DNA from: an uncultured Candidatus Saccharibacteria bacterium | GTDB taxonomy: Bacteria > Patescibacteriota > CPR2 > UBA1875 > CAIMLA01 | Assembly: GCA_964641375.1 (NCBI GenBank) | Contig: CAZXMN010000001.1 | Location: 2,185 to 66,184 of the forward strand | Direction: 5' to 3' | DNA: 64,000 nucleotides | In this document: positions 49,884-64,000 of the stretch, piece after piece | Layout of the letters: each line of letters starts with the position of its first letter | Position numbering within the stretch: position 1 is the stretch's first letter | Made by a program: the position numbers and the translations under genes | Notes under the pieces: generated by a model | What the model saw: the letters and a program-made list of their open reading frames with translations, nothing else | What the model was told of the DNA's origin: nothing | Database searches by the model: none

Positions 49884-49912
49884 TTTACAAAATCATAGAA
49901 ATCTTGTATAAT
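49884..49912 (+). promoter_or_regulatory. Sigma70-like promoter TTTACA-N17-TATAAT upstream of GC-rich cassette B
   Basis: Seen in sequence. Confidence 0.5.
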
Positions 49913-49973
49913 GCCGTGGAATCTAACAAGAACAATGATTTGTACACATCGGATAACCTGGGAGGTGAACGGC

Positions 49974-50192
49974 ATGACTATTAGCCAGCCGGCTCAAACG
50001 GCTACATTCTTTGGTTGGCAAGAAGATCCACAAGGCATCGGGGATCCACACCAGGTCGAGCCTGACAACGCCTGCGTCATCGAGATCTGCTTCTTCTGTC
50101 ATCGGAAATTCGAGGTGGCCAAGGGGGAGCCCAAGAGCAACGTCTGCCCGGCCTGCTACCACCGTTCTACGGCGTCCACTGAAGGAAGGTGA
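49974..50192 (+). CDS. GC-rich small zinc-ribbon protein (cassette B, gene 1)
   Basis: GGAGGTG RBS plus ATG. CFFCH...CPACYH arrangement. About 62% GC. Confidence 0.45.
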   Translation: MTISQPAQTATFFGWQEDPQGIGDPHQVEPDNACVIEICFFCHRKFEVAKGEPKSNVCPACYHRSTASTEGR

Positions 50193-50197
50193 AAGGC

Positions 50198-50389
50198 GTG
50201 CCCGATAGGATATTCCTAACTGGCCTTACCGATAAGCAAGACGATCGAGTTCGGATTCCTCTCCTCGAAGAGGATGGGGTCACTCCGAACGACAACGCTC
50301 ACGCTATCGTTCAAGTTCTCGGCATGATGGGCATCAGCATCCCGAATGTCATGCGCGGGACTGGCCTGGAGAGGATTGGCGGACACTAA
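50198..50389 (+). CDS. GC-rich small protein (cassette B, gene 2)
   Basis: GTG start after GGAAGG RBS. 63 aa. No domain recognised. Confidence 0.4.
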   Translation: MPDRIFLTGLTDKQDDRVRIPLLEEDGVTPNDNAHAIVQVLGMMGISIPNVMRGTGLERIGGH

Positions 50390-50423
50390 TCCACCAACTC
50401 TCTCAAGAACAAGGTAAATGACA

Positions 50424-50478
50424 CGACCCGTCTAGGGAGGACACACGACACTCGTCGTACCGTCTTTCACTGACGGGT
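50424..50478 (+). terminator. GC-rich hairpin closing cassette B (GACCCGTC...GACGGGTC) followed by T-rich tract
   Basis: 8-9 bp perfect stem with a structured 39 nt loop, then TTCTCTTTATCT. Confidence 0.4.
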
Positions 50479-50839
50479 CTTCTCTTTATCTAATTTTGTC
50501 CACTTTTATAGCCAAAATATATTATATAAAGTAAAAGAGCCGCGAATAGCGACTCTTTTACTTTGTTTCAAAGTTCTCCCAGATATGCAACACCGTCCGA
50601 AGACTTGACCTAGCCCAAAACTAATTGGCTGGCGGTTGCAGGGAGAACCCTACCAACAAGTAAGCTTAAAGGAGGGTGTCTAAGGCATTACTCATTGATA
50701 GGGCACTCGCGGCAACGTGCTGATGGGGAAACTTACTGTCAAACGTCATCCTGTTTTTAGGTTGACATATTATTCTAGCATTAATAACACTTTTTGTCAA
50801 GCATTTTTTGGAGGGGATGTGGATAAGGTATTAGACTAG

Positions 50840-51133
50840 TATAAATATTGGCTTACACTAGGTAAAAACACGAGCTTCTCTGCAGGACTTTTCAAGGAAA
50901 TTTACGCTTGTGGCGAGCCAATTAACGAAGTTTTTCATACTGAGGAGTCCAAACTTCGAAGTCTCAAACTCTCAAAGAAGTGCATTGAAGAGATTGTAAA
51001 TTCTAGGAATAATTATGATCCAAAAGAGGTAATTAACGAACTTTCGAAGATTCATGTGAAGCCTCTATTTATCTTTGATAGTGATTATCCGGCGCAGTTA
51101 CGCGAAATTGCTGATCCGCCATTCTTACTCTAA
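50840..51133 (+). pseudogene. dprA: dprA remnant (N-terminal about 95 codons only, no start codon) immediately upstream of topA
   Basis: Open frame encodes ...KIHVKPLFIFDSDYPAQLREIADPPFLL, matching the conserved DprA motif (B. subtilis Smf IQIVTIFDDDYPQALREIYDPPAVLF). Stop follows directly. The Rossmann-fold body is absent. Confidence 0.55.
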
Positions 51134-51181
51134 CTCTATATCTATATGAGAGGAGAGAATGACAATTGACATTGAGCAGAA

Positions 51182-53194
51182 ATGTCTATACCATTTAATA
51201 TTGCTATGATACTCGTAATAGTTGAATCGCCCGCGAAAGGCAAAACAATTGAGAAATATCTGGGGGAAGGCTACAAAGTCCTGGCCTCTTTTGGCCATGT
51301 CCGTGATTTACCAAAAAGCAAACTTGGTATCGACATCGAGAATGGTTTCGAACCCGAATATGTCATTCCGATTAAAGCAAAGAAAGTTCTGACAAACCTT
51401 CGAACGGCTGCCAAAAGTGCAGATAAAGTCTTGCTCGCAACTGACCCCGACCGCGAGGGAGAGGCAATTTCTTGGCACCTTCGGGAAGCTTTGGGTCTGA
51501 AAGAGAAAGACTACGACCGTATCGAATTTCACGAGATTACAAAAGACGCAATTCAGTTCGCCGCGGGGCATCCGCGCAAAATTAATGAAGATCTAGTTGA
51601 TGCTCAGCAGGCCCGTCGCGTCCTCGATAGACTCGTCGGCTATAACCTTAGTCCGCTCCTGTGGCGCAAGATTCGTAAAGGACTATCAGCTGGTCGTGTC
51701 CAGTCTGTGGCCGTCAAACTTATCGTCGATCGTGAGCGCGAGATACAGGACTTCAAACCGGTCGAATATTGGGAAATCAGCGCTGATCTAAAGGCGTCAG
51801 ATAGTCATGAATTTAATGCGAGACTTGCCAAGAAAGACGGCAAAAGCGTTGAGATAGGGAACAAGAAAACGGCTGATGCTATCTTGTCCGATTTGGAAAA
51901 AGCTAATTATGTAGTTAGTAAGGTTGAAACCAAAGATGTTAAACGTAGCCCAGCGGCGCCTTTTACAACTTCTACACTTCAGCAAGAGGCCGCGCGCAAA
52001 TTGAGATATAGCTCCAAGAGAACTATGGCAATTGCCCAACAACTTTATGAAGGTATCGATGTCGGCGAAGGTTCTGCCGGTCTCATCACCTATATGCGTA
52101 CAGATTCAACAAACCTATCTAGCCAAGCCCTAAACGAGATTCGTAAATATATTGAACAAAAAATTAGTTCAGATTTCTTGCCTGCAAAACCTCGTGTATA
52201 TAGAAAAGCCAAAGCAGCTCAAGAAGCTCATGAAGCCGTCAGACCAACCAGTGTGAGTCACACTCCTGAAAGCATCAAGAGTTACCTCAGCCCCGAGCAA
52301 TTTAAGCTCTACGAGCTTATCTGGAAACGAACTGTTGCCAGTCAAATGGCTGATGCTATTTATGCCCAGACAAGTGTAGATGTTGCTGCGGGAGTTTACA
52401 CTCTCCGCGCCAGTGGCCGCACTATCAAATTCAAAGGTTTTATGTCTGTTTATCTGGAAGGTGAAGAAGAAACACAGACAGAAGAAATGGCCGAATTTAG
52501 GCTGCCAAATTTGAAAGAAAATGATAAATGTGATCTTCAGAAATTGAACTCTGATCAAAAATTCACTGAGCCACCAGCTAGATATACCGAGGCTTCTCTC
52601 ATTAAAACACTTGAAGAAAATGGTATTGGTCGTCCATCGACATACGCCCCAACTATCTCAACTATTCAGGACAGGGGATATGTCCGTATTGAACAAAGAA
52701 AGTTCTATCCTGAGGACATCGCTTTTATAGTCACAGACCTACTTCGCGATCATTTTCCATTTGTTGTCAGTGTCGATTTCACAGCCAATATGGAAAAGGA
52801 ACTCGATGAAATCGCCGAAGGACACATGGATTGGGTTCTTGTCATGAAGGAATTCTGGGAACCTTTCAAACAAGATTTGGATAAAGCTCAGACAAATGTT
52901 GAGAAAGTGAACACTGACCGCGAAACTGACGAAATCTGTGAGAAATGCGGCAAGCCAATGGTAATTAAGACTGGCCGATATGGTGAGTTCCTGGCCTGTA
53001 CCGGTTTCCCAGAATGCAAAAACGCCAAGCCTTTACCCCAGAAATCCCTCGGCAAATGTCCTGATTGTAAAGAAGGTGATATAGTAGAACGCAAGACTAA
53101 ACGAGGTAAGAAATTCTGGGGCTGCTCTAGATACCCGGAATGCAAATGGGCAACTTGGGATAAACCAAAAACAAAAGAAAACGAGGAGGAATAA
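51182..53194 (+). CDS. topA: DNA topoisomerase I
   Basis: TOPRIM N-terminus LVIVESPAKGKTIEKYLG, active-site Tyr region, C-terminal zinc ribbons (CEKCGKP...CTGFPECK). Confidence 0.93.
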   Translation: MSIPFNIAMILVIVESPAKGKTIEKYLGEGYKVLASFGHVRDLPKSKLGIDIENGFEPEYVIPIKAKKVLTNLRTAAKSADKVLLATDPDREGEAISWHLREALGLKEKDYDRIEFHEITKDAIQFAAGHPRKINEDLVDAQQARRVLDRLVGYNLSPLLWRKIRKGLSAGRVQSVAVKLIVDREREIQDFKPVEYWEISADLKASDSHEFNARLAKKDGKSVEIGNKKTADAILSDLEKANYVVSKVETKDVKRSPAAPFTTSTLQQEAARKLRYSSKRTMAIAQQLYEGIDVGEGSAGLITYMRTDSTNLSSQALNEIRKYIEQKISSDFLPAKPRVYRKAKAAQEAHEAVRPTSVSHTPESIKSYLSPEQFKLYELIWKRTVASQMADAIYAQTSVDVAAGVYTLRASGRTIKFKGFMSVYLEGEEETQTEEMAEFRLPNLKENDKCDLQKLNSDQKFTEPPARYTEASLIKTLEENGIGRPSTYAPTISTIQDRGYVRIEQRKFYPEDIAFIVTDLLRDHFPFVVSVDFTANMEKELDEIAEGHMDWVLVMKEFWEPFKQDLDKAQTNVEKVNTDRETDEICEKCGKPMVIKTGRYGEFLACTGFPECKNAKPLPQKSLGKCPDCKEGDIVERKTKRGKKFWGCSRYPECKWATWDKPKTKENEEE

Positions 53195-53297
53195 TGTCAA
53201 AAGGTAAAGACGCGAAAAAACAGGTAAAAAAACCGAAAAGAGACAAAAAGCCAAAGGGCGTCCAAATAGCTTCTTCTACACAAACCAATTAGTAAAA

Positions 53298-55067: not shown

Positions 55068-55271
55068 TTATAGGGTGAGGTGAACTATATTATTTTGTTG
55101 TTTGTTGTTTGTAAGTGACACCCCGTGTCATATATTTTTCGTATACTTCCTCCTTTCTTTATTTGCGTTAACAGTATTCTAAAACCCATTTCTGTGATGC
55201 GGCTGAGGATTATTTCTGCCCTTGCCGAAAGTAGAATAAAACGATACGATAGGTATGTAATAGGAGGGAAT

Positions 55272-56057
55272 ATGCCAACAAAGACAAAATCAACTGAAAA
55301 AACATTCAGCGGACTTCGTAAGTTCAATATTTTTATGGGTTTTCTGCATCTCGTCCAGGGAGTTGCTATTCTGAAGCTCGCAACTTCTTTCGCGCTTCCA
55401 GTCACAACTTCATTTTTACAATTTAATTTGATGTCTCATAAACTACTACCAGTGACGGAGCAGAGGTTTACGCTTCAAATCGCTCCACTAATTGCACTCT
55501 TTCTGTTTCTCTCGGCTGCAGCCCATTTCATTATTTCACTACCCAAAGTTTATGAATGGTACGTCGCTAATCTGAAGAAGGGGGCGAATTATATGCGTTG
55601 GGTTGAATATGCTTTCAGCTCTTCAATTATGATGGTAGTCATCGCAATGCTTGTTGGCGTTTATGACGGCGTCAGTCTAATGTTAATCTTCGCCTTGAAC
55701 GCCTGTATGATACTCTTCGGTTGGATGATGGAACTTCACAACCAATCGACTCAGAAGACGAACTGGACAGCCTATATATTCGGCACATTAGCCGGCATCG
55801 TGCCTTGGATTGCAGTCGCTATCTATTTATTTGGAGCCGGCGGGGTCACTGGCCACACTCCTACATTCGTATACTGGATATTCTTCTCAATATTCGTATT
55901 CTTTGACATTTTTGCCTTAAATCAATTTCTACAATATAAAAAGATTGGTCCATGGAAGAACTATATCTATGGAGAAAGAGTCTATATAATTCTCTCGCTA
56001 GTTGCCAAATCTCTGCTAGCCTGGCAAGTCTTTTTCGGCACTTTACGACCACTTTAA
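55272..56057 (+). CDS. Heliorhodopsin (7TM retinal-binding, inverted topology family)
   Basis: TAGGAGGG RBS plus ATG. Long collinear matches to heliorhodopsin 48C12 recalled from memory: NIFMGFLHLVQGVAILKL, MRWVEYAFSSSIMMVVIA, NACMILFGWMMEL, GIVPWIAVAIYLFGAG, YKKIGPWKNYIYGERVYIILSLVAKSLLAWQ, including the TM7 Schiff-base Lys in SLVAKS. Confidence 0.85.
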   Translation: MPTKTKSTEKTFSGLRKFNIFMGFLHLVQGVAILKLATSFALPVTTSFLQFNLMSHKLLPVTEQRFTLQIAPLIALFLFLSAAAHFIISLPKVYEWYVANLKKGANYMRWVEYAFSSSIMMVVIAMLVGVYDGVSLMLIFALNACMILFGWMMELHNQSTQKTNWTAYIFGTLAGIVPWIAVAIYLFGAGGVTGHTPTFVYWIFFSIFVFFDIFALNQFLQYKKIGPWKNYIYGERVYIILSLVAKSLLAWQVFFGTLRPL

Positions 56058-60476: not shown

Positions 60477-61604
60477 GTGTTGTTAAAAATTATGGCGACA
60501 AAAACAGCAAAATCTATTCTGGATCGCATCGCTGATAGCGAACAGAGCAAAAAAATCCTATCCTTGGACATTGAAGCCGAGGTTGATTTTGTGCTGTCTG
60601 CCCCAAAGGTCAAAAAAGACCGTGATATAGCCGTTATTCGTGAAAGATATGGTCTAGGCGGTGAGAGACCAAAGACACTTGAAGAAATTGGCAAAGAGCT
60701 AGGAATTACTCGTGAAAGAGTTCGCCAAATCGAAAAAAATGCTCTCAGAAAACTTTCTGAGTTTTTGGCCAGTGAAATCCGAGGTCAAGAGATTTTGACC
60801 ACTCTAGAAACTAAGATTCTGAAAGACGGTGGTACTGTTACTAACCTTAGACTTTACGAACTTTTGCTCGGCGGTAATGCTTCTAGCGCCAAACTGAAAC
60901 ACATGGTTTCTTTCCTGGCTATGTTAGATAAAAAAATCAATCAAACCCTTGAAACTACTGATGTAAAAGCCGGTTTTTACCTTGATAACATCACAAAAGC
61001 AAATTTGTTAGAAATTATCAAGATTGCTACCGATATTTTGGACACTGAGAAACAGCCACTCGAGGAGAAGGCCTTCCTAAATAGAGTAGAAAAAAAAGAG
61101 ATTGGATTCACAAACGATCAGGTAATCGCCATCATTTCAATGAGCAAAAAAATTCTTCGTACTGATAATGGTAGTTTGGGCTTAAGTCACTGGCGTGAAA
61201 TTAATCCGAAGAGTATCCGCGACAAAACTTATTATATATTGAAAAAATATCAAAAACCGCTTCATTTCACCGAGATCTCGAAACATATTGAAGCCCTCGA
61301 TGAGAAGAAGAAAAAGGTTACCAGACAAGCCGTCCACAACGAACTTATCCGTGATGATCGTTTTGTTCTGATCGGCCGTGGCATCTATGCCCTGAGTGAA
61401 TGGGGTTACAAAGCCGGTGTAGTTGAAGATGTTATCGAAGAAGTTCTGATTACGGCTGGTAAACCTATGCACAAAGATGATATTGTATCTGAGGTTATGA
61501 AACGTAGAATCGTTAAAGAAACTACAATCCTTTTGAACTTACAGAAGGATAAATTTACTCGAGTTGCTAGAGCAACTTACACAATCACCAAACTGGAGGG
61601 GTAA
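60477..61604 (+). CDS. Sigma-70 region-4-like HTH protein with C-terminal winged-helix (HARE-HTH-like) domain
   Basis: [44 protein letters not shown] is a textbook sigma70 region 4.2. The C-terminal FTEISKHI...[12 protein letters not shown] is winged-helix-like. Confidence 0.5.
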
Positions 61605-61605
61605 C

Positions 61606-64000
61606 TTGTTAGTACAGAATATTAGTCTCGCAATACTTAGCGGCCTCTGGACGTTAGTTGTTTGGACTTGGTGGCTCGTTGTCCCAGTCATTCTTTATTT
61701 TGCTTGGAAAAACTTCAAAAAGGCTGAATTCGTCGATAAGATAGAATCAGTTGTACTTTCGATGAAGGTCCCAAAAAATAACGAGAAAGGACCGGTCTCA
61801 GCGGAGATGATGTTTGCCGCTCTACATGGTATTCTACAGCCACCAAGTCAGTCAAATAAGGGGACTACGGTCCAAGAACACATTAGTATGGAATTTGTGG
61901 CCAGTTTGGATGCCATCGAATTCTTTATCTGGACACCAAAACATCTAAAAGACTTCGTTGAGGGACAAATCTATGCTCAATTTCCAACGGCAGAAATAGC
62001 TATTGTTGATGACTATTCACTAAATCTCGACATTGATCACGATCAAATACCCGATGCTGTAGTCGGAACCGAATTGACACTCGTCAAAGATGAAATTTAC
62101 CCAATCAAAACCTTTCAAAACTTTGACGTGGATCCACTTGCAGGCATCACCGGCATGCTTTCCAAACTTGATCATGGCAGCGAACGCGTCTGGATTCAGA
62201 TATTGGCCAAACCGGTTCCTGACGACTGGAGAGATATGGGGCTCGGTCATGTTGCTAACAAGAAAAGTGGCGGCAAATCGATAAGTAAAACAATTCCACA
62301 ACACATTGTTGACTTTCTTGGTGTAACTCTCGGACTCGTTCATACTCTTATTACGACACTATTATCACCCTTGAGTGATGAACAAAAGAAAAAGAAATCA
62401 GAAGCAGAAAAGAAAAAGAAGGAAAAAGCCGAAAAAGAAGGTGTTAAATTATCTCATTCAGAAGAAACGGAACTGACCGCCATTGAAGAAAAGTCCAATA
62501 AACTCGGTTATAAAGTTATTATCCGTGTCCTTTATCTATCCAAAACTTCTGAAAAGGCGACAGAGCGTATCCAAGCTGTCCTTGGAGCCTTTAAACAATT
62601 TAATACGACAAATTTAAATGGTTTTGTCGGAACTGGTCTCTACTCGGGTCATGAATTCTTAGATGCCTACCGTGCTAGATTATTCAATAAAGCCGGCTAT
62701 GTATTAAATATTGAAGAACTCGCCAGTCTTTATCATCTTCCACATGTATCGGTGGAGACACCAAACATTGTTTGGACTTCTTCCAAAAAAGGAGAACCAC
62801 CTTCAAGTTTAGCCATGATTGATGGGGGACCAGAGGCTTGCCCCGATGAGATCACTCCACTCGGCATGACTACTTTCCGTAACGGGCTACGTACTTTCGG
62901 CATCAAAAGAGATGATAGACGTCGTCATATGTACCTCGTCGGTAAGAGTGGCACGGGTAAATCAAGACTGCTTGAGAACCTAGCAATTCGTGACATTCAG
63001 CAAGGTGAAGGCGTCGCAGTTATCGACCCTCATGGCGAACTTATCGAACGTATTATGAAGTTTATTCCAAAGGATCGAATCAAAGACGTCATTTATCTAA
63101 ATCCTGCTGACAAAGACTTTCCAATAGCATTTAACCCACTCGAGAGTCCAGAGGGTATGAGAGAAGAAACTGCAAAAGGTTTCATCTCTGTATTAAAGCG
63201 TATGTTTGGTTTCTCTTGGGGACCTAGACTTGAATACGTCTTGAACCATACAGTAATGGCTCTTTCCGAAGTTGAAGGTTCTACTATGCTTGGTATTGTC
63301 CGCATGCTAACAGATAGAACTTACCGTAACAAAATCGTATCCCAAGTAACCGATCCTGTCGTACAGATGTTTTGGCTCAAAGAATTCTCATCTTATAATG
63401 ACAAGATGGCTACTGAGACCGTCGCACCTATCTTGAACAAAGTAGGTCAATTTACGGCTTCACCAATTATTCGTAATATTGTTGGTCAACCAAAGAGTAG
63501 CATTGATTTTGCAGATATAATGAATAGTGGAAAAATATTACTCGTCGACCTATCAACTGGCAAGATAGGGGAGGTGAACTCTGAGTTACTGGGTTCTCTT
63601 ATTATTACAAAACTCCAACTAGCTGCAATGCAACGTGCCTTTATGCCCGAGGAAGAGCGTCGTGACTTCTATTTATATGTAGATGAATTCCAGAATTTTG
63701 CAACTGATTCATTCGCAACAATACTATCCGAGGCACGTAAATATCGTTTGTCACTCACGGTTGCCAACCAATACATCGCTCAGATGGAAGAGACGGTCCG
63801 TGACGCTGTTTTTGGCAACGTAGGCTCACTTGTTGCTTTCCGTGTTGGTGCGACCGATGCAGCCTATCTAGAGAAGGAATTCGAGCCTGTCTTCACACAA
63901 AACGACCTTATTAACCTCGATAATAGACATATTTATCTCAATATGCTTATTGACGGCGTCACAACTGTACCCTTCTCGGCCATGACTTTGGATTCGCCAG
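61606..64000 (+). CDS. VirD4/TraG-family type IV secretion coupling ATPase-like protein (3' end beyond window)
   Basis: TTG start after GGAGGGG RBS. N-terminal TM helices, Walker A GKSGTGKS, DEFQNF Walker-B-like motif. The ORF remains open to the window end. Confidence 0.5.
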   Translation, partial: MLVQNISLAILSGLWTLVVWTWWLVVPVILYFAWKNFKKAEFVDKIESVVLSMKVPKNNEKGPVSAEMMFAALHGILQPPSQSNKGTTVQEHISMEFVASLDAIEFFIWTPKHLKDFVEGQIYAQFPTAEIAIVDDYSLNLDIDHDQIPDAVVGTELTLVKDEIYPIKTFQNFDVDPLAGITGMLSKLDHGSERVWIQILAKPVPDDWRDMGLGHVANKKSGGKSISKTIPQHIVDFLGVTLGLVHTLITTLLSPLSDEQKKKKSEAEKKKKEKAEKEGVKLSHSEETELTAIEEKSNKLGYKVIIRVLYLSKTSEKATERIQAVLGAFKQFNTTNLNGFVGTGLYSGHEFLDAYRARLFNKAGYVLNIEELASLYHLPHVSVETPNIVWTSSKKGEPPSSLAMIDGGPEACPDEITPLGMTTFRNGLRTFGIKRDDRRRHMYLVGKSGTGKSRLLENLAIRDIQQGEGVAVIDPHGELIERIMKFIPKDRIKDVIYLNPADKDFPIAFNPLESPEGMREETAKGFISVLKRMFGFSWGPRLEYVLNHTVMALSEVEGSTMLGIVRMLTDRTYRNKIVSQVTDPVVQMFWLKEFSSYNDKMATETVAPILNKVGQFTASPIIRNIVGQPKSSIDFADIMNSGKILLVDLSTGKIGEVNSELLGSLIITKLQLAAMQRAFMPEEERRDFYLYVDEFQNFATDSFATILSEARKYRLSLTVANQYIAQMEETVRDAVFGNVGSLVAFRVGATDAAYLEKEFEPVFTQNDLINLDNRHIYLNMLIDGVTTVPFSAMTLDSP

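What the first reader, a model, noticed from the sequence alone, without database searches (positions are those of the whole stretch)
50840..51182. Truncated dprA relic immediately upstream of topA
The conserved dprA-topA pair is recognisable. Only about 95 codons of the DprA N-terminus remain, the part upstream of the Rossmann core. The frame ends at a TAA stop immediately after the conserved ..DYPAQLREIADPPFLL motif, has no usable start codon, and the Rossmann domain is absent. Loss of DprA (RecA loading on incoming ssDNA) would impair natural transformation. That is interesting given that a VirD4-like coupling protein is still intact in the same window.
Basis: partly seen in the sequence, partly recalled or inferred. 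Interest (0 to 1): 0.55.

Follow-up and report, generated by a model that had tools for sequence, protein, structure and literature searches.

The report
Decayed dprA remnant upstream of topA
This is the broken remnant of dprA, a gene that helps bacteria recombine DNA taken up from outside, in an uncultivated ultra-small bacterium; it is an ordinary recent gene loss, notable mainly because a sister lineage also lacks the gene through a different deletion.

Summary
Window 50819-51169 (+) is a dprA pseudogene at the orthologous pth-dprA-topA position. The 97 open codons (50840-51130) match the N-terminus of full-length DprA: E=1.9e-22 against 1.84 billion proteins, and 55.5 bits against my own DprA profile. 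Nothing else DprA-like lies in the 64 kb.

Intact orthologues in relatives (362-364 aa) show three lesions:
- TAG at codon 7, after a preserved SD and GTG start.
- A 6-nt insertion that creates the TAA.
- An in-frame internal deletion of about 250 codons (Rossmann and winged-helix domains). It keeps the last codons and the original TGA, which overlaps the topA -35 box.

The same lesions occur in nine assemblies, so this is not an artefact. The remnant keeps all 31 residues invariant in 21 intact orthologues, so inactivation was recent. A sister lineage (TopA 94% identical) has a different, near-total dprA deletion.

Whether transformation is lost is inferred; the rest of the genome could not be searched.

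Side finding: a conserved, structured RNA of about 240 nt with no Rfam match is transcribed divergently just upstream of dprA.

Verdict: an ordinary pseudogene, modest interest.

The parts
50810..50816 (+). Retained Shine-Dalgarno sequence (GGAGGGG) of the former dprA
   Evidence: TGGAGG(G) sits at the same place before the GTG start in most of the relatives aligned, including all eight with the full-length RNA gene.
50819..50821 (+). Ancestral GTG start codon of dprA
   Evidence: GTG GAT AAG... aligns with the GTG start of the intact 362-364 aa dprA in L086, L090, L084, L088 and L082.
50837..50839 (+). Lesion 1: in-frame TAG at codon 7
   Evidence: Intact orthologues have K or D here. The sister lineage L096 has AAA. 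TAG is a normal stop in this genome (13 of 56 ORFs).
50840..51130 (+). 97 open codons: the N-terminal (SAM-like) domain of DprA plus the first motif of the Rossmann domain (..YPAQLREIADPPFLL)
   Evidence: E=1.9e-22 to full-length DprA P0001. 55.5 bits to my own DprA profile. 56-67% identical to 21 intact orthologues.
51131..51142 (+). Lesion 2: a 6-nt insertion (TAACTC) creating an in-frame TAA, followed by a 6-nt CTATAT tandem duplication that is polymorphic in the population
   Evidence: Relatives read PPFLL-Y(M/V)RG without interruption. The duplication is present in the window, L095, L111 and L112, and absent in L081, L092, L093, L094 and L108.
51143..51157 (+). Codons 105-109 of DprA (YMRGE), still in frame
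   Evidence: Aligns to YMRGS / YVRGE of intact orthologues.
51158..51169 (+). Lesion 3: junction of an in-frame internal deletion of about 250 codons, then the last codons and the original TGA stop of dprA
   Evidence: Window ...GAG AAT GAC AAT TGA CA compared with L086 ...CTG AAC AAT TGA CA. The Rossmann and winged-helix domains (residues about 110-360) are missing. The junction cannot be placed to the nucleotide.
51166..51194 (+). topA promoter (TTGACA-17-TACCAT); its -35 box overlaps the dprA stop codon
   Evidence: Scan scores 10 of 12. The same hexamers and 17-nt spacing occur before topA in L086, L090, L082 and L096. This explains why the deletion stops here.
50520..50800 (-). Neighbour, not part of the relic: a conserved structured small RNA gene. 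Promoter TTGACA 50800-50795 and TAGAAT 50777-50772; terminator hairpin 50528-50564
   Evidence: Present in every relative that carries the locus. 98% of cells pair, and 17 pairs show compensatory changes. No Rfam match. It bounds the relic on the 5' side.

Best explanation
Window 50819-51169 is a recently inactivated unitary pseudogene of dprA, sitting at the orthologous pth-(small RNA)-dprA-topA position of an uncultivated, probably Patescibacteria-type bacterium.

Three lesions disable it:
- A nonsense codon (TAG) at codon 7.
- A 6-nt insertion carrying TAA after codon 104.
- An in-frame internal deletion of about 750 bp. It removes the Rossmann fold (by established knowledge of DprA, the domain for ssDNA binding, dimerisation and RecA contact) and the C-terminal winged helix.

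Nothing useful can be translated. What remains is bounded by two elements that must be kept. One is the promoter of a divergently transcribed conserved small RNA, about 20 nt upstream of the dprA start. The other is the topA promoter, whose -35 box overlaps the dprA stop codon.

The pseudogene is fixed in a population sampled in nine assemblies. The remnant shows almost no decay beyond the three lesions, so the loss is young. A sister lineage lacks dprA through a different, almost complete deletion that spares the same two flanking elements.

Shown: homology, the lesions, synteny, reproducibility and lack of decay. Inferred: that the cell now lacks DprA activity and is therefore poor at recombining imported DNA.
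For: Homology:
- Searches give E=3e-16 and E=1.9e-22, covering the whole fragment against N-terminal positions of full-length DprA.
- The targets are true DprA by Pfam.

Orthologous position:
- The order S11 peptidase - der - pth - dprA - topA - 32-aa ORF holds in L082, L084, L086, L088 and L090. The more distant L098, L101, L103 and L104 keep the der-pth-dprA-topA core. All have dprA of 362-370 aa.

Lesions:
- They are read directly from the alignment with five intact orthologues.
- TAG and TAA are ordinary stops here: TAA 38, TAG 13, TGA 5 of 56 ORFs.
- No canonical start occurs before codon 80.

Not an artefact:
- Identical lesions occur in the window, L081, L092, L093, L094, L095, L108, L111 and L112, which come from different samples.
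- Within the relic these differ only by two SNPs (both non-synonymous) and a 6-nt indel.

Recent loss:
- Identity to 21 intact N-termini is 55.6-66.7%, against 52-86% (mean 64.6%) among the intact ones.
- All 31 invariant columns are kept.
- Four-fold degenerate sites between the window and sister L096 differ at 60%.

Second loss:
- L096 and L097 (TopA 93.8%, Der 89.7% identical to the window) have only 406 nt between pth and topA.
- Their dprA is reduced to 9 N-terminal codons plus ...CTC AAC AAT TGA, and codon 7 is still AAA.

Flanking constraints:
- Promoter scan.
- Conservation.
Against: - Only 64 kb of the genome was available, so a second dprA copy (paralogue or xenologue) cannot be excluded. 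The indirect argument is weak: among the 120 best DprA clusters in the 5.8-billion-protein collection, none has an N-terminus more than 67% identical to the relic.
- No expression data exist.
- The deletion is in frame. That fits a period in which a 112-aa N-domain-only protein was made, although chance alone gives this one time in three.
- The near absence of decay could also mean the DNA is constrained for another reason.
- Whether the L096 deletion is independent or nested in a shared earlier lesion is argued from divergence, not shown.
Confidence: 0.9

Rival explanations
1. The relic is real, but DprA function is retained by another copy elsewhere in the genome, so transformation is not affected.
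For: Only 64 kb could be searched. The source contig is about 210 kb and the genome is larger.
Against: All ten relatives with an intact gene carry dprA at this one locus. No intact DprA in the public collection has an N-terminus close to the relic; the best is 66.7%. Small genomes of this kind rarely keep duplicates (general knowledge).
Confidence: 0.1
2. The remnant still has a function, either as a stand-alone N-terminal (SAM-like) domain protein or as constrained non-coding DNA such as a spacer or transcript between the small RNA promoter and the topA promoter. That would explain why it is so well preserved.
For: The deletion is in frame and keeps the start, SD and stop. All 31 invariant residues are kept.
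Against: TAG at codon 7 and TAA at codon 105 are present in all nine assemblies, and no in-frame start occurs before codon 80. Both population SNPs are non-synonymous. The sister lineage L096 does without this stretch: it keeps only 9 codons. Preservation is equally explained by youth.
Confidence: 0.05
3. Assembly or sequencing artefact: a collapsed or chimeric contig that hides an intact dprA.
For: None found.
Against: The same junction, TAG and TAA occur in nine assemblies from ENA and JGI samples, with small genuine polymorphisms between them.
Confidence: 0.01
4. The dprA deletion is a by-product of replacement of topA by a foreign copy.
For: TopA falls into two types only 50% identical, while Der is 65-69% identical between the same genomes.
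Against: Relatives with the same TopA type as the window (L084, L086, L090; 85-87% identical) have intact dprA. Any replacement therefore long predates the deletion. The topA promoter and the last dprA codons are contiguous and conserved.
Confidence: 0.01

Closest known systems
DprA/Smf, DNA-processing protein A (Pfam PF02481 with PF17782; solved structures 3UQZ from S. pneumoniae and 3MAJ from R. palustris)
   Same: The N-terminal domain and the first Rossmann motif (YP..L..I.DPP.LL) are homologous. The intact orthologue P0031 matches 3UQZ at E=6e-50 over residues 82-293. It lies immediately upstream of topA in all ten intact relatives; from my own knowledge the pairing also occurs in other bacteria, e.g. 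smf-topA in Bacillus subtilis.
   Different: No Rossmann fold, no winged helix, two internal stops. It is a pseudogene, not a member able to load RecA.
Intact dprA of the nearest sampled relatives (L086, L090 and L084: 363 aa; P0031-P0051)
   Same: Same locus, same GTG start and SD, 56-67% identical over the first 109 residues, same stop overlapping the topA -35 in L086.
   Different: The window lacks codons of about 110-360 and carries TAG and TAA.
The dprA scar in sister lineage L096/L097
   Same: dprA is lost at the same locus. The small RNA gene and the topA promoter are spared.
   Different: A different 5' junction (codon 9 rather than about 109), no TAG at codon 7, more of the 3' end kept (CTC AAC AAT TGA), and no GC-rich cassette upstream.
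Competence-gene decay in lineages that no longer transform (general phenomenon, from my own knowledge). In Saccharibacteria the com genes comEC, comF and dprA are dispensable for growth (PMC10633639).
   Same: Loss of a non-essential competence gene by nonsense mutation and deletion.
   Different: PMC10633639 describes com genes as conserved across CPR phyla, so loss in two neighbouring lineages is the less common state. The state of comEC, comFC and recA in this genome is unknown.

Membership tests
DprA (functional member) | Rossmann-fold DNA_processg_A domain (PF02481, 212 positions) | tested here: not met
   Only profile positions 3-31 match: E=0.011, 15.4 bits against a cut-off of 29.6. 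TIGR00732 gives 10.6 bits against 191. The rest is deleted.
DprA (functional member) | C-terminal winged-helix domain (PF17782), present in close orthologues | tested here: not met
   Present in P0031-P0064. Absent from the window: the DprA profile finds nothing beyond position 106.
DprA (functional member) | Uninterrupted reading frame with a start codon | tested here: not met
   GTG start present, but TAG at codon 7 and TAA at codon 105. Standard genetic code.
DprA-derived sequence (homology only) | Significant similarity to the DprA N-terminal domain | tested here: met
   E=1.9e-22 against 1.84 billion proteins. 55.5 bits, E=3e-16, to my own profile.
DprA-derived sequence (homology only) | Orthologous position (pth ... 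dprA-topA) | tested here: met
   Same neighbours in ten relatives with intact dprA.
Unitary pseudogene | Disabling lesions reproducible in independent data | tested here: met
   Identical TAG, TAA insertion and deletion in nine assemblies.
Unitary pseudogene | No functional copy elsewhere in the genome | not testable with these tools
   Only the 64-kb window could be scanned, and it holds none.
Unitary pseudogene | Signature of relaxed selection | tested here: inconclusive
   Two of two population SNPs are non-synonymous, but there is no excess divergence and all 31 invariant residues are kept. This fits very recent inactivation.
6S RNA or other Rfam family (for the neighbouring small RNA) | Match to an Rfam covariance model | tested here: not met
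   No relevant hit up to E=10 (window) and E=5 (four relatives); only chance-level matches to unrelated families.

The most novel reading that the evidence does not exclude
Two neighbouring lineages of an uncultivated Patescibacteria-type clade lost dprA by separate deletions, suggesting that recombination of imported DNA was abandoned in this subclade. Both deletions stop exactly at a previously undescribed, strongly conserved small RNA of about 240 nt with an invariant anti-Shine-Dalgarno-like loop (CACCCUCCUUU). That RNA, not dprA, is the constrained element of the locus, and it may be a new RNA family acting on ribosome-binding sites.
Probability: 0.35. Interest if true: 0.55.

Novelty: new member of a known kind. 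Interest (0 to 1): 0.3.

Why it matters
The relic itself is a routine example of gene decay.

It matters a little for two reasons. First, PMC10633639 lists DprA among the core com genes conserved across CPR/Patescibacteria phyla. That paper used natural transformation to make the group genetically tractable. A lineage, and apparently a pair of lineages, without DprA would be predicted to resist that approach. Such lineages also give a natural test of whether the uptake machinery is kept for nutrition rather than recombination. Second, the fresh state of the relic, with its lesions fixed across many samples, shows how quickly such genomes erode a dispensable gene while sparing overlapping regulatory signals.

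The adjacent conserved small RNA is probably the more valuable lead.

Tried and rejected
- **Word-indexed protein search with the fragment:** no candidates.
- **phmmer of the fragment against PDB sequences:** only chance hits, E above 1.
- **GTDB genome scan with TopA:** no close relative; the best was 55% identity. It served only to build a DprA profile.
- **topA replacement as the cause of the deletion:** rejected.
- **Alternative genetic code or readthrough:** rejected by stop-codon usage. The three tRNAs in the window are Leu-CAA, Gln-CTG and Glu-CTC, none of them suppressors.
- **Rfam identity for the conserved non-coding element:** none. nhmmer found it only in this clade. I considered 6S RNA and SRP RNA by eye. 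No model supports either, and the predicted fold has a multi-branch region rather than an open central bubble.
- **GC-rich cassette ORFs:** no Pfam or PHROG family. My first BLAST of the 72-aa ORF against relatives used a wrong frame and is void. The all-against-all comparison included the ORF only as its longer 93-aa reading and found no relative for it. The 66-aa ORF (GTG start) was not in that comparison; its check against relatives is the correctly framed BLAST, which also found nothing.
- **TopA cluster fragments P0152 and P0153:** C-terminal pieces that say nothing about dprA.
- **Exact deletion junction and microhomology:** could not be resolved at this divergence.

Full report
**1. What is in the sequence**

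Frame 50840-51130 on the plus strand is open for 97 codons. It is preceded by TAG and followed by TAA, and it ends ...DYPAQLREIADPPFLL. Read one step further upstream, the same frame gives GTG GAT AAG GTA TTA GAC TAG, preceded by GGAGGGG.

**2. Is it DprA, and beyond chance?**

Curated models see little:
- PF02481 gives E=0.011 at 15.4 bits, and only its first 29 positions match.
- TIGR00732 gives E=0.23.
- The word-indexed search and a PDB sequence search found nothing.

This is expected, because the N-terminal domain of DprA lies outside the Pfam model and is poorly conserved.

Exhaustive and profile searches settle the question:
- phmmer against 1.84 billion representatives gave 30 hits at E<=1e-3, all aligned to N-terminal positions of the targets. 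The best was P0001 (364 aa): E=1.9e-22, 47% identity, query 1-97 on residues 8-104.
- Against the ORFs of 80 topA loci, the fragment hit only the ORFs upstream of topA. The three best of these, checked against Pfam, are true DprA.
- A profile built from those ORFs scored the fragment at 55.5 bits, E=3e-16, positions 11-106 of 371. It hit nothing else in the six-frame translation of the window.

**3. Orthologous position**

P0001 lies in L082 (GCA_041738615.1) in the order S11 peptidase - der - pth - dprA - topA - 32-aa ORF, which matches the window.

A metagenome scan with Der recovered closer relatives:
- L084, L086 and L090: Der about 80% identical, TopA 85-87% identical.
- L088: Der about 66% identical.

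All have an intact dprA of 362-363 aa with a GTG start and a TGGAGG ribosome-binding site. More distant relatives (L098, L101, L103, L104) keep the same core der-pth-dprA-topA order. Twenty-one clusters of intact DprA at 75-100% identity to the L086 protein exist in the public collection.

**4. Anatomy of the relic**

- **Start.** The window reads VDKVLD*YKYWLTLGK against VDKLLTKHKLWLTLGK (L086) and MEKSLEDYKYWLTLGR (L082). The ancestral start (50819) and SD are therefore retained, and codon 7 is a nonsense TAG. Relatives have K or D there.
- **TAA.** After PPFLL, relatives continue Y(M/V)RG. The window has a 6-nt insertion (TAACTC) that supplies the TAA. In this strain a further CTATAT duplication follows. 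The frame then continues YMRGE.
- **Deletion.** Codons of about 110-360, covering the Rossmann fold and the winged helix, are missing. The sequence resumes ...AAT GAC AAT TGA CA, which matches the end of L086 dprA (...CTG AAC AAT TGA CA).
- **Frame and stop.** The deletion is in frame. The original TGA (51167-69) is kept and overlaps the -35 box of a conserved topA promoter, TTGACA-17-TACCAT.
- **Genetic code.** TAA, TAG and TGA all serve as stops here, in 38, 13 and 5 of 56 ORFs.
- **Starts.** No canonical in-frame start occurs before codon 80.

The relic is therefore 50819-51169.

**5. Not an artefact, and fixed in the population**

The exact TopA, Der and Pth proteins of the window, and their 90% clusters, led to further contigs from separate ENA and JGI samples: L081, L092, L093, L094, L095/L110, L108, L111 and L112. 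All carry the same TAG, the same TAA insertion and the same deletion. Within the relic they differ only by two SNPs (N17K and T41A, both non-synonymous) and the 6-nt indel.

**6. Age**

The relic's first 109 residues are 55.6-66.7% identical to the 21 intact orthologues. Those orthologues are 52-86% identical to each other, mean 64.6%. The relic keeps all 31 columns that are invariant in them.

The nearest sister lineage (L096/L097; TopA 93.8%, Der 89.7% identical) differs from the window at 60% of four-fold degenerate sites. Had the relic been drifting since that split, it would be unrecognisable; this step is my inference. Inactivation is therefore much younger than that split.

**7. A second loss**

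In L096 and L097 only 406 nt separate pth from topA. There, dprA is reduced to GTG GAT AAG ATA TTA ATT AAA CAC AAA TGA CTC AAC AAT TGA: nine N-terminal codons joined to the last few codons. Codon 7 is still AAA.

The 5' junction differs from the window's, and more of the 3' end is kept. Together with the age argument, this points to an independent deletion. I rate that at about 70%. A nested second deletion in a shared ancestor cannot be excluded. Both scars spare the same two flanking signals.

**8. Why the edges are where they are**

*Downstream.* The -35 box of the topA promoter overlaps the dprA stop. The relatives' topA begins MKLVIVESPAK or MILVIVESPAK about 12 nt after the -10 box. The window's topA therefore probably starts at ATG 51206. 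The 670-aa gene call from 51182 begins inside the promoter.

*Upstream.* A conserved element of about 300 nt abuts the dprA ribosome-binding site in every relative.
- It is best read on the minus strand. There is a TG-extended TTGACA-17-TAGAAT promoter (50800-50772, 11 of 12). Its spacer varies between relatives while the hexamers do not. An intrinsic terminator lies at 50528-50564.
- The consensus fold is better on the minus strand: -79.7 against -63.8 kcal/mol. It holds many G-U pairs that would be A-C mismatches on the other strand, and UUCG/UACG tetraloops.
- On 11 sequences, 98.3% of cells pair, against 32-51% when the partners are slid. Seventeen pairs show compensatory changes, a count reached by 0 of 500 shuffles. 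Eleven of the seventeen lie in the terminator.
- The single-sequence fold has z=-7.2.
- The apical loop CACCCUCC(UUU) is invariant and resembles an anti-Shine-Dalgarno sequence.
- No Rfam family matches.

**9. Meaning**

By established knowledge, DprA loads RecA on incoming single-stranded DNA. Its dimerisation, DNA-binding and RecA-binding surfaces lie in the Rossmann domain. The intact orthologue matches solved DprA 3UQZ at E=6e-50 over residues 82-293, which is the part missing here. The locus therefore encodes no DprA activity.

PMC10633639 reports that ComEC, DprA and ComFC are conserved across CPR phyla. It also reports that Saccharibacteria are naturally transformable through the com system. 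In its Tn-seq screen these genes did not contribute to fitness in co-culture, so loss is tolerable. That this organism transforms poorly is an inference. I could not search the rest of its genome.

No evidence gathered here links it to DprA-dependent transformation.

**10. Verdict**

It is an ordinary, recent pseudogene: a new member of a known kind. The apparently repeated loss in a sister lineage adds modest evolutionary interest. The adjacent small RNA is an unplanned and more novel lead.

Noticed in passing
window 50520-50800, minus strand: A conserved structured small RNA gene of about 240 nt, transcribed divergently from dprA. It has its own TG-extended promoter and an intrinsic terminator, a long apical helix with an invariant loop CACCCUCCUUU (anti-Shine-Dalgarno-like), no Rfam match, and is present in all 11 relatives examined at the pth-dprA locus.
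   Followed up: partly
window 49884-50480 (+): A GC-rich cassette (56% GC against 42% for the window) with its own promoter (TTTACA-17-TATAAT, 49884-49912). It holds two translationally coupled small ORFs: 49974-50192 (72 aa, CxxC...CxxC) and 50189-50389 (66 aa). Neither has a Pfam or PHROG hit. The cassette is absent from sister L096 and from L082.
   Followed up: partly
L084, L086, L088 and L090, pth-to-small-RNA gap; L084 11420-12700; L088 and L104 between dprA and topA: The space after pth is a hotspot for different inserts of unknown ORFs (gap 330 nt in L082, up to 3257 nt in L090). The inserts in L084, L086 and L090 are GC-rich (50-55% GC); the one in L088 is not (35% GC). L084 has another GC-rich insert (1.25 kb) between dprA and topA, and L088 (one ORF) and L104 (two small ORFs) also carry ORFs there.
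   Followed up: partly
window 51166-51206: topA probably starts at ATG 51206 (MILVIVESPAK, as in relatives) with a very short leader. The 670-aa gene call from ATG 51182 begins inside the topA promoter.
   Followed up: yes
window 51206-53194 compared with L082 and L088: TopA falls into two types that are only about 50% identical, although Der is 65-69% identical between the same genomes. Within each type TopA is 81-90% identical. This suggests an old replacement of topA in one subclade, unrelated to the dprA loss.
   Followed up: partly
window 53194-53292 (+): A lysine-rich 32-aa ORF whose ATG overlaps the topA stop codon. It is conserved after topA in relatives (66% identity to L082, 79% to L096) and may be a real small protein.
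   Followed up: no
window 55125-56057 (+): A heliorhodopsin gene (PF18761, E=1.6e-99) in this small-genome bacterium.
   Followed up: no
window 61537-63999 (+): An ORF like a type IV coupling protein (TrwB_AAD_bind E=3e-10, TraG-D_C E=1e-5), open for 821 codons and cut by the end of the window.
   Followed up: partly
window 50495-50508 (+): A short motif TTTGTC(C/T)ACT(T/A)GTA, conserved just outside the small RNA terminator in most relatives (window, L082-L084, L086, L088, L090, L104) but not in L096. Function unknown.
   Followed up: no
window 51135-51140: A 6-nt CTATAT tandem duplication at the relic, polymorphic among otherwise nearly identical assemblies (present in 4 of 9).
   Followed up: yes
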